From positions 5,834 through 69,833 of the IMG/VR virus record IMGVR_UViG_3300046531_000473: DNA of 64,000 nucleotides; one strand, written 5' to 3'. Source of the stretch: a virus (Duplodnaviria > Caudoviricetes). Each line of letters begins with the position of its first letter. Position 1 is the first letter of the stretch. This document shows, in pieces, positions 53,382 through 58,275 of this stretch. The notes under the pieces were generated by a model. The model made no database searches. It saw nothing but the letters and a program-made list of their open reading frames with translations, and was not told the DNA's origin. The position numbers and the translations under genes were made by a program.

Positions 53382-54158
53382 ATGGGCCAAGTATGGGTAA
53401 ACGGTCATTGGCGCAAAAAGCCAACCAGGAAACGCGGTGGTGGTGATTTATCTTCGATAGGCTGTATGGCTCCGATGGTTTTGTTGGGAGGAATCCTAGT
53501 ACTCTTGCTCTATCCTTTGTTCATCCTATATCTATTTGTCTCCTCGCATCCAGAAATAGTAGGATTGTTTGTTGTATTGGCTCTTGTTGCAATTGTAGGA
53601 TTTGTCATTTTCAGATCTAATAGAGACAAGATTGAGGAGAGAAAGAGAAGGGATTTTCAAGCTTATCAGCAATACACAGCCCAAGTGCAGGCTCAAAAGG
53701 ATGCTGAGCAACACCATCAACAAATGGTTTACCGAGGACAAGAACTAGCACGTAGAGAGCGTGAACGCTTTGTCAGGGTAAAAACCCTGGGGGATATGCT
53801 GATGCTGACACCCACAGAATTTGAAGAAGCCATTGGAAGAATGTTAGCGTCGAAGGGGCTTCACCACGTCCAACGAATTGGTGGCAGTGGTGACTTGGGC
53901 ATTGATCTCCTAGCTAACGATACGCACGGCAACCGTATTGTCATACAGTGCAAGCGATACGCGCCAGGGAGGTCTATTGGCACTCCAGATTTGCAAAAGT
54001 TTATCGGCATGATGTTTGTCCATCATAAAGCGCAAAAGGGTATTTTTGTTACCACTTCAATATTTAAGCAAACAGCAATAGACTTGGCTCATGATAATGA
54101 TATATTGCTCATCGATGGCAATTCTCTTGTCAATCTTATGCAAGGCATAACGATGTAA
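53382..54158 (+). CDS. Membrane-anchored Mrr-like restriction endonuclease domain protein
   Basis: Two TM segments; EFEEAI...GDLGIDL...VIQCKRY...FVTTS. Confidence 0.9.
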   Translation: MGQVWVNGHWRKKPTRKRGGGDLSSIGCMAPMVLLGGILVLLLYPLFILYLFVSSHPEIVGLFVVLALVAIVGFVIFRSNRDKIEERKRRDFQAYQQYTAQVQAQKDAEQHHQQMVYRGQELARRERERFVRVKTLGDMLMLTPTEFEEAIGRMLASKGLHHVQRIGGSGDLGIDLLANDTHGNRIVIQCKRYAPGRSIGTPDLQKFIGMMFVHHKAQKGIFVTTSIFKQTAIDLAHDNDILLIDGNSLVNLMQGITM

Positions 54159-55164: not shown

Positions 55165-55195
55165 CGCTTGTCCTACGATCTTAGACAAGAAATAT

Positions 55196-55238
55196 CGAAC
55201 ATAATTTCGTTGACAGGGAATTGATAGCAGACGACAAT
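55196..55238 (+). promoter_or_regulatory. Promoter with adjacent LexA-box-like site
   Basis: CGAAC-ATAA-TTTCG abutting TTGACA-17-GACAAT. Confidence 0.45.
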
Positions 55239-55255: not shown

Positions 55256-56059
55256 ATGATTGACAACGAAACAGAACAAACACCAGCGCCGCGTGATCCT
55301 TTCTCACAAGCAGAGACTGCTACGATCATCGCCGATGCCCTCGGAGAAACAGCGTTCAGCGCTCGTGCTCAGATTACGCGAATTGTGAGAGCCCTGGGGC
55401 GCACACAGTCCCGTGAGCTGCTTGCCAAGACACTGGAGATCGAAACCAACGGCGGCGTAATGCTCCCTGACAACTCACGTCGCAAAACACCTGGTGGCAT
55501 CTTCTTTCATTTGGCCTACACCACTGGCAAACCCAAACCAGGCAAAACACTAGAAAGGCCACAGGATCGTGTTAAGAAGCCCAAGAATGGCGCTGCTCAG
55601 TCATCGCAGTCCAATGACACGCCGAAAGCACAGAAGGCCACAGAGAAGCCTCAGCATCCAGCCATGGTATTTACATGGGACAATCGCATAGCTATTATCA
55701 AAGAAGCAGAAGAGACGAAAGGAACAGCAAACGTGAAAATCACTCTCATTGGGCGTCCAGGCAAGATCATCGACAAAGGCCAGTTTGTGATGACAGTCAT
55801 GGAGTCATCGAAAGTGCCAATGCTCCCCAAAGGACTCCCAATGCCAACCAACATGACCACGAAATATGGCGTCTACATCGCAACAAAGCAGTGGAACAAA
55901 GTAGTAGAGGCAATACAAGATCCAGAGGACGCATTGATCATCGAAGGCTTCCCAAAGATCGATACAGAGACCAGCACAATTGCTGTCTTTGCAACGAATA
56001 TAACAACGAAGAAACAGCAAATGGCGAAGAAACAGCCTCAGACAGCCAGTGGTAGCTAA
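55256..56059 (+). CDS. PHAX-type RNA-binding domain protein
   Basis: ITRIVRALG....RELL..TLEIETNGGVMLPDNSRRKTPGGIFFHL matches the PHAX RNA-binding signature; second domain VKITLIGRPGK...KQW. Confidence 0.75.
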   Translation: MIDNETEQTPAPRDPFSQAETATIIADALGETAFSARAQITRIVRALGRTQSRELLAKTLEIETNGGVMLPDNSRRKTPGGIFFHLAYTTGKPKPGKTLERPQDRVKKPKNGAAQSSQSNDTPKAQKATEKPQHPAMVFTWDNRIAIIKEAEETKGTANVKITLIGRPGKIIDKGQFVMTVMESSKVPMLPKGLPMPTNMTTKYGVYIATKQWNKVVEAIQDPEDALIIEGFPKIDTETSTIAVFATNITTKKQQMAKKQPQTASGS

Positions 56060-56081
56060 ATTGTAGAAAGGACTCTTGGTG

Positions 56082-56219
56082 ATGATAGAGCGTATTGCAC
56101 GCATTGTATTCATAGCGATCATGTCAATACTGATACTCGCATGCATCGCGTTTGCTTTGCTTGCAATATACTTTGCATTTCACCCGCGGTGCTTCGTTTG
56201 CGGATCGCAAAAGTCTTGA
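56082..56219 (+). CDS. 45-aa membrane peptide with CxxC
   Basis: MIERIARIVFIAIMSILILACIAFALLAIYFAFHPRCFVCGSQKS*. Confidence 0.5.
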   Translation: MIERIARIVFIAIMSILILACIAFALLAIYFAFHPRCFVCGSQKS

Positions 56220-56246
56220 TATTGTTGCACAAGAAACATTGCCTCG

Positions 56247-56276
56247 TTGACACTCAATATCCTAATCTGTTATACT
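56247..56276 (+). promoter_or_regulatory. sigma70 promoter for the Y RNA-Ro60 operon
   Basis: TTGACA-18-TATACT. Confidence 0.8.
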
Positions 56277-56283
56277 TGGTAAC

Positions 56284-56406
56284 GTTCTGGGCCGTATGAT
56301 GTAGGTTCTCTATTGTCACAAGTTCGATCCTTGTCTCAGGGGTTCCTCTGAGTAGCTCAGTGGTAGAGCACAGATTTTTCCCTATATCGCCACTTTTGCC
56401 TAGCAC
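56284..56406 (+). ncRNA. yrlA: YrlA-type Y RNA (circularly permuted tRNA mimic)
   Basis: T-arm ACAAG-TTCGATC-CTTGT; loop-closed acceptor CTCAGGG-GTTC-CTCTGAG; D-arm TA-GCTC-AGTGGTA-GAGC; terminal stems CTGGGC/GCCTAG and TGATGTAGG/CCTATATCG; upstream of Ro60. Confidence 0.9.
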
Positions 56407-56416
56407 ACGGAATTAT

Positions 56417-56487
56417 TGTCCTGAGCCGATATCTTTGGGTTATCGCTTTATATACCCCATGGATGCAAACTTGCTCAGGACATTTTT
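56417..56487 (+). ncRNA. Second Y-like RNA (Ro-binding stem with bulged C)
   Basis: TGTCCTGAGC-C-GA...ACTT-GCTCAGGACA-TTTTT. Confidence 0.65.
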
Positions 56488-56504
56488 ATTAGAAAGAAAC
56501 GACA

Positions 56505-58115
56505 ATGCATTATCTTGGTTTTGGTAAAAGATCGCAGTCTACACCACAGAGCGAGCCTATCCCAGGCTCTACTCAGATTGCAAATAATGCTGGGGGATTT
56601 TCGTGGTCGGTAGACGATTTGACGAGGCTAAATAGATTTCTTGTGTTAAGCAGTAACTCAGGTACATATTATGTCGGAGAAAGAAAGCTCACTCGTGAGA
56701 ATTTAGATGCAGTAGAGCGTATGCTCAAAAATGGTCAAGGAAAGCTTGTGGTCAATACCATTGCTGAGATATCTAAAGCTGGTCGGGCACCGTCAAACGA
56801 TCCTGCTCTCTTTGCTCTAGCTCGTTGTGCTGCTGCCGATGATCAAGAAGTACGCCAATATGCATTGTCAATCCTTCCACAAGTAGCGCGTACCGGAACT
56901 CACTTGCTGCATTTTGTTGCTTACACGAAGCAGTTTAGAGGATGGGGCCGTGCTTACAGACGTGCTGTTGCCTCGTGGTTTAATGAGAGGAGAGAGCAGA
57001 ATTTGGCTTACCAGCTTGTGAAGTATCAGCAGAGAGATGGGTACAGCCAACGGGATCTATTGAGACTTGCGCACCCAAAGGCCACAACGGATACATACAA
57101 TGCACTCTACCACTGGGTAACAAAGGGTTGGGAGAATGTAGGGAACGAACCTCATCCTGATCAGGCTCTCCAGATCATCTGGGCATACGAAAAGGCGAAA
57201 AGGGCTCAGGATGATAAAGAAGTGGCCTTACTCATCAAGGAGTACAGATTGCCTCGTGAAGCTGTACCGACTCAATTCTTGCACTCTACACGCGTATGGG
57301 AGGCACTTCTGGAAGAGATGCCAATGGAGGCGATGACTCGCAATCTCGCAACAATGACCCGTGAAGCAGTGATATTGCCGATGGGCGATATGACGCGGCA
57401 GATTGCAGAGCGGCTACGGAATCGAGATGCTATCATAAAGGCGCGATTGCATCCGATTAAGATTTTGTCTGCATTGACGACCTACCAGAGTGGCAAGAGC
57501 GTTCGTGGAAGCAATACTTGGACTCCTGTTCAGGCAATTGTTGACGCGCTAAACGATGCCTTCTATCTGTCTTTCAATAATGTAGATCCAACGGGAAAGC
57601 GCATTTTGCTGGCAATTGACACAAGCGGATCAATGCGTGGCGCTACTGTCAATGGTATCCCAAATCTTGCAGTCCATACAGCGGCTGGTGCCATGGCTTT
57701 AGTCCTGGCAAATAGCGAGACTAACTATCATATTATTGGTGTTGATACTTCAGTCCAAGATGTCCCTATTTCTCCAAAGCAACGGCTTGACAATGCTGTG
57801 CAGATCTTAAAGCAATACGGTGGCGGCGGCACAAATTTAGCATTACCGATGGAATATGCTCTACATAAGAACCTAGAAGTTGATGCATTTGTCATTTTAT
57901 CGGACAGCGAAACTTGGCAAGGCCATCAGCATCCTGTGCAGGCACTTCAAGAGTATAGAAGACAGATCAATGCAGAAGCGCGTATCATCAATGTCCAGAT
58001 GACAGCGACTCACGTTACCAACAACGCACCTGATGACAAAAGAGCATTAGAAGTATGTGGCTTTGATACGGCTATCCCAGAAATCATATCAGGCTTCATT
58101 CGTGGCGAGTTTTAG
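56505..58115 (+). CDS. rsr: Ro60/Rsr TROVE-domain RNA-binding protein with vWA domain
   Basis: NNAGGFSW...LNRFLVLSS..GTYY; RTGTHLLHF; GWGRAYRRAV; KYQQRDGYSQRDLLRLAHPK; LAIDTSGSM (MIDAS); VCGFD. Confidence 0.97.
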   Translation: MHYLGFGKRSQSTPQSEPIPGSTQIANNAGGFSWSVDDLTRLNRFLVLSSNSGTYYVGERKLTRENLDAVERMLKNGQGKLVVNTIAEISKAGRAPSNDPALFALARCAAADDQEVRQYALSILPQVARTGTHLLHFVAYTKQFRGWGRAYRRAVASWFNERREQNLAYQLVKYQQRDGYSQRDLLRLAHPKATTDTYNALYHWVTKGWENVGNEPHPDQALQIIWAYEKAKRAQDDKEVALLIKEYRLPREAVPTQFLHSTRVWEALLEEMPMEAMTRNLATMTREAVILPMGDMTRQIAERLRNRDAIIKARLHPIKILSALTTYQSGKSVRGSNTWTPVQAIVDALNDAFYLSFNNVDPTGKRILLAIDTSGSMRGATVNGIPNLAVHTAAGAMALVLANSETNYHIIGVDTSVQDVPISPKQRLDNAVQILKQYGGGGTNLALPMEYALHKNLEVDAFVILSDSETWQGHQHPVQALQEYRRQINAEARIINVQMTATHVTNNAPDDKRALEVCGFDTAIPEIISGFIRGEF

Positions 58116-58148
58116 GAAAGTTACTGTTTGCGCTGTGCCGTGAGGCTG

Positions 58149-58177
58149 TTGCACAGGACGAACAGCCATGCTATAAT
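58149..58177 (+). promoter_or_regulatory. Promoter downstream of ro60, overlapped by a palindrome
   Basis: TTGCAC-17-TATAAT with extended TG; GGCTGTT-N10-AACAGCC at 58144-58167. Confidence 0.75.
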
Positions 58178-58237
58178 GGTAGCAGTAACTAATTAGCACA
58201 CGCTAGAACTATCTTAGAAGGCCTTTCTTCTCTGCCA

Positions 58238-58275
58238 AAGACTCCAGGTCAAGCATCGCTCAGCCTGGAGTTCTT
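58238..58275. terminator. Hairpin terminator at a convergent junction
   Basis: GACTCCAGG...CCTGGAGTT. Confidence 0.75.

What the first reader, a model, noticed from the sequence alone, without database searches (positions are those of the whole stretch)
55256..58275. Phage RNA-protein module: PHAX-domain protein, two Y-like RNAs, Ro60 and a downstream small RNA
Seen: one co-oriented block with a PHAX-signature protein, a promoter, a YrlA-type tRNA mimic, a second Y-like RNA, full-length Ro60, then a promoter-terminator unit with no ORF. Established: bacterial Ro60 (Rsr) binds Y RNAs, works with PNPase in structured-RNA decay and often lies near rtcB; some actinophages encode Ro60 and YrlA. 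Unusual here: no rtcB in the window, two Y RNA types, and an adjacent PHAX-type RNA-binding domain (best known from eukaryotic snRNA export). Inference: a phage ribonucleoprotein system that may counter tRNA-cleaving defences or remodel host RNA decay.
Basis: partly seen in the sequence, partly recalled or inferred. Interest (0 to 1): 0.82.

Follow-up and report, generated by a model that had tools for sequence, protein, structure and literature searches.

The report
Phage Ro60/Y-RNA cassette beside unrelated PHAX-OB gene
An uncultured soil phage of Chloroflexota carries an ordinary, portable Ro60 gene with its two small "Y" RNAs, and the PHAX-like RNA-binding gene next to it is real and undescribed in bacteria but is not a regular partner of Ro60.

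Summary
They are a PHAX_RNA-bd protein (55256-56059), a strong promoter, a YrlA-type tRNA-like RNA (56289-56395), a second hairpin Y RNA (56417-56482), full-length Ro60 (56505-58115), and a promoter-plus-hairpin unit with no ORF (58150-58270).

They do not form one module. Promoter, YrlA, mini-Y and Ro60 make a known kind of cassette; two Y RNAs per Ro60 locus is normal (Chen 2014; Thermus phage phiLo 2025). The same cassette sits in unrelated flanks in other viral contigs. A model of the mini-Y hairpin found 31 further copies, all on the Ro60 strand, and none in 1.5 Mb of PHAX loci.

The PHAX gene encodes a true PHAX-RBD homologue fused to an OB fold. Its family is sporadic in Chloroflexota and often lies near ParA/ParB, antirepressor or protelomerase genes. 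Apart from the window:
- Ro60 is near PHAX in 1 of 160 PHAX loci (convergent).
- PHAX is near Ro60 in 0 of 85 viral Ro60 loci.
- PHAX is absent from all 54 Ro60 virus records searched whole.

The closest PHAX relative lacks the cassette but keeps the downstream promoter-hairpin unit. Verdict: known Ro60-Y RNA cassette, adjacent by indel to an independent, undescribed nucleic-acid-binding gene.

The parts
55210..55238 (+). Promoter-like site ahead of the PHAX-OB gene (TTGACA-17-GACAAT)
   Evidence: 10 of 12 matches. Homology with relative L083 begins at 55176, so the promoter region is shared.
55256..56059 (+). PHAX-RBD + disordered basic linker + C-terminal OB-fold protein (267 aa); an independent gene, not part of the Ro60 cassette
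   Evidence: Pfam PF10258 at 59.1 bits. PDB profile hit to human PHAX at E 4e-16. AF2 model and fold searches: residues 15-102 match PHAX-RBD (Z 8.7-9.6); residues 155-259 match the SSB/PriB/aaRS-N OB fold (Z 7-8.6). The family has 1510 clusters at 50% identity and is centred on Chloroflexota.
56076..56219 (+). 47-aa hydrophobic ORF with a TTG start; coding status uncertain. It lies inside the roughly 2.06-kb segment that relative L083 lacks
   Evidence: ORF list. No PHROG family. Absent from L083.
56247..56276 (+). Sigma-70-type promoter of the Y RNA/Ro60 unit (TTGACA-18-TATACT, extended -10)
   Evidence: 11 of 12 matches, the best site in the region.
56289..56395 (+). YrlA-type tRNA-like Y RNA; the closing stem extends to about 56286-56406
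   Evidence: Rfam RF02553 at 36.1 bits, E 2e-5, model positions 1-114 of 114. Fold with T-arm, closed acceptor-like stem and D-arm. Homologues in L163 (40.7 bits) and L166.
56417..56490 (+). Mini-Y hairpin RNA (YrlB/Yrn2 type) with 5' motif GAGCCGA...GGGUUAUC and a 3' U-tract
   Evidence: Rfam sbRNA family ceN72-3_ceN74-2 at 28.4 bits, E 0.007. Fold z-score -5.1. Compensatory changes in 8 of 23 pairs. Model R1 finds 31 further copies, all on the Ro60 strand, and none in 1.5 Mb of PHAX loci.
56505..58115 (+). Ro60 (TROVE + vWA with a DxSxS MIDAS motif), 536 aa
   Evidence: Pfam. NCBIfam Rsr model at 476 bits, full length. PDB: 9nen at 1e-118, 1yvp at 9e-117, 2nvo at 3e-108. 86-90% identical copies sit in unrelated flanks in L163 and L166.
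58150..58177 (+). Promoter-like site (TGCACA-16-TATAAT with TG by the scan; read as TTGCAC-17-TATAAT in the alignment). It belongs to the phage backbone
   Evidence: Both hexamers and the 17-nt spacing are kept in L083 directly after its PHAX gene, while the spacer sequence diverges.
58238..58270 (.). Hairpin between the convergent Ro60 and YopX genes; probably a bidirectional terminator
   Evidence: Folds on both strands. A 39-nt match at 95% identity in L083, with the loop inverted. The T-run is weak and the terminator scan did not call it.

Best explanation
The stretch holds two independent units that are neighbours through an indel.

Unit 1, about 56247-58115, is a standard portable phage Ro60 cassette. 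One strong promoter drives a tRNA-like YrlA RNA, then a mini-Y hairpin ending in a U-tract, then Ro60 by read-through or processing. By analogy with Deinococcus, Salmonella and Thermus phage phiLo, the two RNAs bind the outer face of the Ro60 ring through their shared 5' motif (G[A/G]GCCG...GGGUUAUC). The tRNA-like part then tethers the ring to a host 3'-5' exoribonuclease (PNPase), so that structured RNAs are degraded or remodelled during infection.

Unit 2, 55256-56059 with its own promoter, encodes a PHAX-RBD plus OB-fold single-stranded nucleic-acid-binding protein. Its family is sporadic in Chloroflexota chromosomes and mobile elements. It most likely serves the replication, partition or establishment of the element, as an SSB-like protein, and not the Ro60 particle.

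The promoter-hairpin unit after Ro60 is backbone sequence that follows the PHAX gene when the cassette is absent.

Shown: the identities, the RNA structure and covariation, the conservation of the cassette, and the lack of conserved PHAX-Ro60 linkage. Inferred: RNA-protein binding, PNPase recruitment, and the DNA-side role of the PHAX-OB protein.
For: Cassette identity:
- Protein, RNA and structure matches.
- DNA homology with L166 spans only 56288-58114, and with L163 only 56407-58087. No flanking window gene is shared.
- The mini-Y model gives 31 extra hits, all on the Ro60 strand and 27 within 1 kb of the gene. There are no hits in 1.5 Mb of PHAX loci.
- The literature shows two Y RNAs per locus as the norm, and a phage Ro60 with two upstream Y-like RNAs that assembles with host PNPase (PMC4201824, PMC12135203).

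Independence of the PHAX gene:
- Ro60 is found in 0 of 80 genome loci and 1 of 80 metagenome loci carrying a PHAX homologue.
- 126 of 161 PHAX loci have at least 2 kb of flank on one side or the other.
- 0 of 85 viral Ro60 loci have a PHAX or OB homologue by HMM at E <= 1.
- 0 of 54 Ro60 virus records, 15 of them at least 90% complete, have one anywhere. The positive control worked.
- L083, whose PHAX is 74% identical, runs from its PHAX stop codon straight into the conserved promoter and hairpin, with no cassette.

DNA-side context of the family:
- Neighbours in 161 loci: ParA in 16, P22 antirepressor N-domain in 13, ParB in 6, ResT/TelK protelomerase in 5, RuvA in 5.
- No Pfam SSB in the phage record.
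- The window gene lies among primase, nuclease, exonuclease and ParB-methylase genes.
Against: - One metagenome contig, L111, also has PHAX-OB (54% identical) next to Ro60 (74-76% identical). They are convergent, with a small ORF between them. By itself that is more than chance for random genomic places.
- In 301 Chloroflexota genomes the two families overlap in 3 genomes against 0.52 expected (p = 0.011). The signal disappears when only full-length PHAX-OB matches are counted (p = 0.22).
- Both proteins bind RNA in their characterised relatives. In the window they are co-oriented, with no called terminator between them.
- Many PHAX loci are short contigs.
- The DNA-side role of PHAX-OB rests only on neighbourhood and fold.
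- The phage record is 77% complete, so an SSB or RtcB could lie off-contig.
Confidence: 0.72

Rival explanations
1. In this phage lineage the PHAX-OB protein is an accessory component of the Ro60 particle. It might be a chaperone or adaptor that binds single-stranded parts of the Y RNAs or of Ro60 substrates, so that the three-part module is functional even though it is lineage-restricted.
For: Adjacent and co-oriented in the window, with no called terminator between the genes. A second PHAX-OB/Ro60 adjacency in L111. Genome-level overlap of 3 against 0.52 expected. A bona fide RNA-binding domain.
Against: No linkage in 159 other PHAX loci, 85 viral Ro60 loci or 54 whole Ro60 virus records. 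The closest relatives on each side lack the partner. L111 is convergent with an intervening ORF, so the two genes there are separate transcription units. No Y-like RNAs occur near PHAX-OB elsewhere. The Y RNAs have their own promoter.
Confidence: 0.12
2. PHAX-OB is an RNA-binding regulator or anti-defence factor that acts independently of Ro60, for example by sequestering host or phage small RNAs or tRNA fragments. Separately, the tRNA-like YrlA may act as a decoy for tRNA-targeting defences.
For: The PHAX-RBD binds ssRNA in eukaryotes (2xc7 entry title). The OB fold also resembles the anticodon-binding domains of Lys/Asp/Asn-tRNA synthetases. Sporadic distribution and several copies per genome are typical of conflict genes.
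Against: No PADLOC or PHROG family matches. The neighbours are DNA partition, replication and telomere genes, not defence or RNA-repair genes. No RtcB or other RNA-repair gene is in the record. No direct evidence.
Confidence: 0.12
3. The downstream promoter-hairpin unit (58150-58270) encodes a roughly 90-nt small RNA that belongs to the Ro60 system.
For: Promoter-like site at 10 of 12 matches with TG, followed by a stable hairpin. No ORF.
Against: The same promoter (both hexamers and the 17-nt spacing conserved) and the same hairpin follow the PHAX gene in L083, which has no Ro60. The sequence between promoter and hairpin is not conserved. Ro60 in L163 and L166 is followed by a different, canonical terminator. 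Promoter-like sites number 11 against 6.1 +/- 2.3 in shuffles, so a single site carries little weight.
Confidence: 0.05

Closest known systems
Thermus phage phiLo Ro60 with Yrl1/Yrl2 (PMC12135203) and the mycobacteriophage Ro60-YrlA loci (PMC4201824)
   Same: A phage-encoded Ro60 with two Y-like RNAs just upstream on the same strand. No phage PNPase or RtcB. Expected to co-opt the host PNPase.
   Different: This Ro60 is far from phiLo's in sequence (E 1e-6) and close to canonical Ro60 of animals and Deinococcus (E 1e-108 to 1e-118). The best match among cultured phages is 43% identical. The host lineage is Chloroflexota (Ktedonobacteria-like), for which the literature searches made here (YrlA with phage; PHAX, Ro60, bacteria and Y RNA) turned up no described phage Ro60.
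Bacterial Y RNA pairs: YrlA plus YrlB (Salmonella, M. smegmatis) and Yrn1 plus Yrn2 (D. radiodurans)
   Same: One tRNA-like Y RNA plus one long hairpin with a small U-rich loop, encoded upstream of Ro60 and probably processed from one precursor.
   Different: YrlA here scores below Rfam's gathering score (36 against 69 bits). Its 5' motif reads GCCGUA, not GNCGAA. The mini-Y RNA is only about 66 nt and carries GGGUUAUC, a motif described for nematode sbRNAs and vertebrate Y RNAs (PMC4726728).
Salmonella rsr-yrlBA-rtcBA RNA repair operon
   Same: Ro60 with two Y RNAs in one co-oriented block.
   Different: No RtcB in the record (RtcA and RtcR were not searched). A sigma-70-type promoter, not sigma-54.
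Eukaryotic PHAX RNA-binding domain (PDB 2xc7, 8pnt; Cryptosporidium 2w4s)
   Same: The N-terminal 90 residues are clearly homologous, with 31-39% identity and the shared motif NGG...GSRRRTPGGVF.
   Different: Only the RBD is shared. The alignment covers human residues 220-347, so the N-terminal CBC- and CRM1-binding regions have no counterpart. Here the domain is fused to an OB fold. The genomic context is prokaryotic mobile elements.
Bacterial and phage SSB/PriB OB-fold proteins
   Same: The C-terminal domain folds like SSB and PriB (Z 7-8.6). A disordered linker is present. The gene lies in a replication-gene region of a record with no Pfam SSB.
   Different: No sequence-level SSB match. The OB fold is C-terminal, not N-terminal. 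The tail is basic, not acidic. The Z-scores fall within the range the tool warns may reflect only a common fold.

Membership tests
Ro60 / TROVE family | TROVE (HEAT-repeat ring) domain | tested here: met
   PF05731 at 151.7 bits against a cut-off of 23.
Ro60 / TROVE family | C-terminal vWA domain with a MIDAS DxSxS motif | tested here: met
   PF25045 at 161.5 bits. D372, S374 and S376 are invariant in alignment A3.
Ro60 / TROVE family | Full-length similarity to solved Ro60 proteins | tested here: met
   9nen at 1.1e-118, 1yvp at 8.8e-117, 2nvo at 2.6e-108, each covering about residues 11-535.
Ro60 / TROVE family | NCBIfam Rsr equivalog cut-off | tested here: not met
   NF041674 at 476 bits against a cut-off of 900. 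It is a full-length homologue but not an Rsr equivalog by that threshold.
Ro60 / TROVE family | Binds Y RNA | not testable with these tools
   Needs EMSA or a pull-down.
YrlA (Rfam RF02553) | Reaches Rfam's gathering score | tested here: not met
   36.1 bits against 69; E 2e-5 in a 4.1-kb search; full model length.
YrlA (Rfam RF02553) | Encoded next to Ro60 on the same strand | tested here: met
   It ends 110 nt upstream of the Ro60 start.
YrlA (Rfam RF02553) | tRNA-like T-arm and D-arm with a closed acceptor-like stem | tested here: met
   GUUCGAUCC T-loop, AGCUCAGUGGUAGAGC D-arm and a 7-bp closed stem appear in the cmscan alignment and the fold.
YrlA (Rfam RF02553) | GNCGAAN0-1G motif near the 5' end (PMC4201824) | tested here: inconclusive
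   The sequence reads GCCGUAUG, that is GNCG followed by UA where the motif has AA.
Hairpin Y RNA (YrlB / Yrn2 type) | Long hairpin with a small U-rich loop, next to Ro60, with conserved structure | tested here: met
   Fold z-score -5.1. 8 of 23 pairs have compensatory changes. 31 further copies lie beside Ro60 on the same strand.
PHAX_RNA-bd (PF10258) | Pfam gathering score and the PHAX-RBD fold | tested here: met
   59.1 bits against 25. 2w4s at Z 9.6 and 2xc7 at Z 8.7. Profile against PDB at E 4e-16.
Full-length PHAX (snRNA export adaptor) | CBC-binding, NES/CRM1-binding and phospho-cluster regions N-terminal to the RBD (PMC12350170) | tested here: not met
   The alignment covers only human residues 220-347. 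The phage protein has 14 residues ahead of the domain.
SSB (PF00436) | Sequence match to the SSB family | tested here: not met
   PF00436 found no match anywhere in the record. Pfam reports only PHAX_RNA-bd for this protein.
SSB (PF00436) | OB fold of the SSB/PriB type | tested here: inconclusive
   Z 7-8.6 over residues 155-259. aaRS anticodon-binding OB folds score equally well.
Ro60-RtcB RNA repair operon | RtcB encoded with Ro60 | tested here: not met
   No PF01139 match in the 69.8-kb record, which is 77% complete.

The most novel reading that the evidence does not exclude
PHAX-RBD plus OB-fold proteins are an undescribed family of prokaryotic single-stranded nucleic-acid-binding proteins. 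They are the closest bacterial and phage relatives of the eukaryotic snRNA export adaptor's RNA-binding domain and are carried mainly by Chloroflexota mobile elements. In the lineage represented by this phage and contig L111 they have been recruited beside Ro60 and work with the Ro60-Y RNA particle as a third component.
Probability: 0.12. Interest if true: 0.75.

Novelty: new member of a known kind. Interest (0 to 1): 0.4.

Why it matters
The Ro60-Y RNA cassette extends a known phage strategy, an RNA-decay particle that borrows host exoribonucleases, to phages of soil Chloroflexota. It also shows that the cassette moves as a unit between unrelated phage backbones.

Two by-products may be of more use.
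- Phage Y RNAs share a compact 5' signature (G[A/G]GCCG...GGGUUAUC, on the Ro60 strand 106 times against 3 on the opposite strand). It includes the UUAUC motif known from animal Y RNAs and sbRNAs, and it gives a simple handle for finding Y RNAs that Rfam misses.
- A true PHAX-RBD homologue, 31-39% identical to the human domain and fused to an OB fold, is widespread in Chloroflexota mobile elements and has no literature. This bears on the origin of a domain regarded as eukaryotic.

The report also shows that this adjacency alone should not be read as a three-part system.

Tried and rejected
The metagenome scan supplied L083 and L084 in their place.
- PHAX searches of IMG/VR with the single protein and with the alignment found no relatives. 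tblastn of 50,697 cultured phages found none.
- No PHROG, NCBIfam or PADLOC family matches PHAX-OB. The ESM Atlas returned only its own PHAX clusters, at scores below 0.8.
- Rfam at gathering thresholds and ARAGORN found nothing in the window. The Y RNAs appear only at E-value thresholds.
- Literature searches for PHAX with Chloroflexota, and for PF10258, returned nothing. The 2010 PHAX-RBD structure paper is not held.
Most hits are probably chance: only 5 of the motif loci had Ro60.
- I considered whether contigs C47 (Ro60) and C56 (PHAX-OB) of a Dictyobacter-like MAG adjoin, which would reproduce the L111 arrangement. They share no overlapping sequence, so this cannot be decided. One protein comparison failed on the reading frame.
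- L099 has PHAX-OB and an exonuclease homologue, but in a different orientation, so it is not a syntenic empty site.


Full report
**Source and layout**

The window is most of a 69.8-kb IMG/VR virus record, 77% complete. Earlier notes of this scan place it with phages of filamentous soil Chloroflexota.

On the + strand the region reads as follows:
- a promoter-like site at 55210-55238;
- a 267-aa ORF at 55256-56059;
- a 47-aa hydrophobic ORF at 56076-56219;
- a strong sigma-70-type promoter at 56247-56276 (11 of 12 matches, with TG);
- about 230 nt with no ORF;
- a 536-aa ORF at 56505-58115;
- 174 nt with no ORF, followed by convergent minus-strand genes: YopX, a small ORF, an RNase T-type exonuclease and a ParB-methyltransferase.

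Upstream lie a primase-like gene and a membrane-anchored Mrr-type nuclease.

**Observation check: proteins**

The first ORF matches Pfam PHAX_RNA-bd at 59.1 bits against a cut-off of 25. A profile of the family matches human PHAX in the PDB at E 4e-16, with a near-identical NGG...GSRRRTPGGVF core.

An AlphaFold2 model (mean pLDDT 72) has three parts:
- a helical domain at residues 18-90, at pLDDT around 90;
- a disordered linker at 104-145;
- a beta-rich domain at 160-259.

The first domain matches the Cryptosporidium PHAX-like domain 2w4s (Z 9.6) and human PHAX-RBD 2xc7 (Z 8.7; Foldseek gives 39% identity over 75 columns). The last domain matches OB folds: SSB, PriB, RPA, and the anticodon-binding domains of Lys/Asp/Asn-tRNA synthetases, at Z 7-8.6.

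The second ORF is a full-length Ro60 with TROVE and vWA_Ro60 domains and an intact DxSxS motif. It matches animal Ro60 and Deinococcus Rsr structures at E 1e-108 to 1e-118. It matches Thermus phage phiLo Ro60 only at E 1e-6.

**Observation check: RNAs**

At gathering thresholds Rfam finds nothing. A local E-value search finds two RNAs:
- YrlA at 56289-56395 (36.1 bits, E 2e-5, full model), with tRNA-like T- and D-arms;
- a match at 56417-56481 to the nematode stem-bulge RNA family ceN72-3_ceN74-2 (28.4 bits, E 0.007). Stem-bulge RNAs are Y RNA homologues (PMC4726728).

The second RNA folds into a long hairpin, -26.2 kcal/mol with z-score -5.1, followed by a U-tract 15 nt before the Ro60 start.

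Four IMG/VR contigs carry Ro60 at 61-90% identity, and all keep this hairpin. In the five-sequence alignment, 8 of 23 pairs show compensatory double changes, while GAGCCG and GGGUUAUC stay fixed.

A covariance model built from these five sequences found 31 additional hits in 0.99 Mb of Ro60 loci. All are on the Ro60 strand and 27 are within 1 kb of the gene. The same model found none in 1.5 Mb of PHAX loci. Both RNAs are therefore real and both belong to Ro60.

**Is two Y RNAs unusual?**

No. Chen et al. [quoted passage not shown] In M. smegmatis both lie upstream of rsr and are processed from one precursor. Thermus phage phiLo has two Y-like RNAs upstream of its Ro60, and the particle assembles with host PNPase (PMC12135203).

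Ro60 is also common in cultured actinophages: 357 records, with a best identity of 43%. The absence of RtcB simply places this locus with the phage type and not with the Salmonella rsr-yrlBA-rtcBA operon.

**Is the PHAX gene part of the module?**

The family is large. It has 1510 clusters at 50% identity at E <= 0.001, and 366 near-length homologues in the word-indexed search. Almost all named members are Chloroflexota: Ktedonobacteria, Chloroflexia, Anaerolineae and Caldilineae. It is sporadic, present in 13 of 301 sampled genomes of the phylum, with 1-4 matching places in each of five genomes searched whole.

I tested linkage in both directions.

From PHAX to Ro60:
- None of 80 loci from species-representative genomes (flanks up to 10 kb) contains a Ro60 homologue.
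- Of the 80 best metagenome loci, only L111 does.
- 126 of the 161 PHAX loci have at least 2 kb of flank on one side or the other.

From Ro60 to PHAX:
- HMMs of the whole protein, the PHAX domain and the OB domain found nothing at E <= 1 in 85 viral Ro60 loci with flanks up to 6 kb.
- The profile found nothing anywhere in 54 complete or partial Ro60 virus records, 15 of them at least 90% complete.
- The same search does find the gene in the window's own record.

**The nearest relatives separate the two units**

Contigs L166 and L163 carry Ro60 at 86% and 90% identity. They share DNA homology with the window only over 56288-58114 and 56407-58087 respectively, and none of the window's flanking genes. 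The cassette therefore sits in different backbones.

Conversely, L083 has a PHAX protein 74% identical, and its homology with the window starts 80 nt upstream of the gene. It runs from the PHAX stop codon through about 25 nt into a promoter, then the same hairpin, then a convergent gene. That promoter keeps the window's hexamers (TTGCTC against TTGCAC, and TATGAT against TATAAT) and the same 17-nt spacing as the site at about 58150-58177.

So a segment of roughly 2.06 kb, about 56060-58145, is an indel relative to that backbone. It holds ORF47, the promoter, YrlA, the mini-Y RNA and Ro60. In L163 and L166, Ro60 is followed by a different, canonical terminator.

**Evidence that keeps a link alive**

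- L111, a 3-kb soil contig, has PHAX-OB (54% identical), then an 83-aa ORF, a hairpin, and a convergent Ro60 (74-76% identical). This is probably a relative of the present phage, so it is not an independent event. The genes there lie in separate transcription units.
- At genome level, PHAX-family and TROVE matches overlap in 3 of 301 Chloroflexota genomes against 0.52 expected (p = 0.011). Two of the three are partial, weak matches with other architectures. With full-length PHAX-OB only, the overlap is 1 (p = 0.22).
- The one clear case is a MAG whose PHAX contig matches the Dictyobacter sp. record behind L009 in length and in the position of the gene. It has a YrlA-like RNA and Ro60 (62% identical) on one contig and PHAX-OB on another. 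Adjacency there cannot be decided.

I put the chance of a real functional partnership at about 0.12.

**What the PHAX-OB protein most likely does**

No neighbour is conserved across the family. The recurrent neighbours are ParA (16 loci), a P22-antirepressor N-domain protein (13, mostly immediately upstream on the same strand), ParB (6), a ResT/TelK protelomerase (5) and RuvA (5). In Anaerolineae, housekeeping genes such as acylphosphatase also recur.

Several things point to a single-stranded nucleic-acid-binding protein serving the DNA side of mobile-element biology, that is replication, partition or establishment:
- this neighbourhood;
- the SSB/PriB-like OB fold;
- the position of the window gene among primase, nuclease, exonuclease and ParB-methylase genes;
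- the lack of any Pfam SSB in the record.

This is inference. An RNA role independent of Ro60 remains possible.

**Mechanism of the cassette**

This part is inferred from characterised systems. Transcription from the 56247 promoter yields YrlA and the mini-Y RNA. Read-through past the mini-Y U-tract, or processing, gives Ro60 mRNA. Both RNAs present the same 5' strand (G[A/G]GCCG-N-GG[G]UUAUC) to the outer surface of Ro60. The tRNA-like module of YrlA tethers the ring to host PNPase for decay of structured RNA during infection. Only the parts list, the structures and the conserved linkage are shown here.

**Novelty and score**

The cassette is a new member of a known kind. The PHAX-OB family is undescribed in the literature I could search and is the more surprising item. 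Its connection to Ro60, which was the core of the finding, is not supported. Interest: 0.4.

Noticed in passing
window 56289-56320 and 56421-56445; also loci L163-L166 and L284-L359: Phage Y RNAs of both types share a 5' signature, G[A/G]GCCG-N6-13-G[G/U]UUAUC. In 80 viral Ro60 loci it occurs 106 times on the Ro60 strand against 3 on the opposite strand, in 48 loci, and 34 of 39 model hits contain UUAUC. UUAUC is described as a functional motif of nematode sbRNAs and vertebrate Y RNAs (PMC4726728). It is not mentioned in the bacterial Y RNA paper.
   Followed up: partly
loci L003-L162 (e.g. L109:5286-7157, L141:7829-8911, L013:8631-9503): PHAX-OB genes in Chloroflexota often lie beside ParA, ParB, a P22-antirepressor N-domain protein or a ResT/TelK protelomerase. 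This hints at linear plasmid-prophage-like elements in this phylum.
   Followed up: partly
L361:1-670 (contig of a Dictyobacter-like MAG, downstream of its PHAX-OB gene): A dense cluster of short repeats (TGTCCGA-type and TCTGACA-type).
   Followed up: no
alignment A1 (P0005, P0016, P0028, P0041): Some family members of about 350-410 aa carry two tandem PHAX-RBD domains ahead of the OB fold. Other genomes have the PHAX domain alone in about 347-aa proteins.
   Followed up: no
window 53382-54158 (+): A phage-encoded Mrr-type (type IV restriction-like) nuclease with an N-terminal transmembrane region. It matches PADLOC mREase_IV at E 9e-23.
   Followed up: no
window 56076-56219 (+): A 47-aa strongly hydrophobic ORF with a TTG start, between the PHAX gene and the Y RNA promoter. 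It lies inside the indel segment, has no family match, and its coding status is unknown.
   Followed up: no
L165:4228-4600 and L164:5629-5900: In L165, three tRNA genes directly precede the Y RNAs and Ro60. L164 has three tandem Y-like 5' motifs upstream of Ro60.
   Followed up: no
window 56505-58115: This phage Ro60 scores slightly higher against animal Ro60 structures (9nen, 1yvp) than against Deinococcus Rsr, and far higher than against Thermus phage phiLo Ro60.
   Followed up: no
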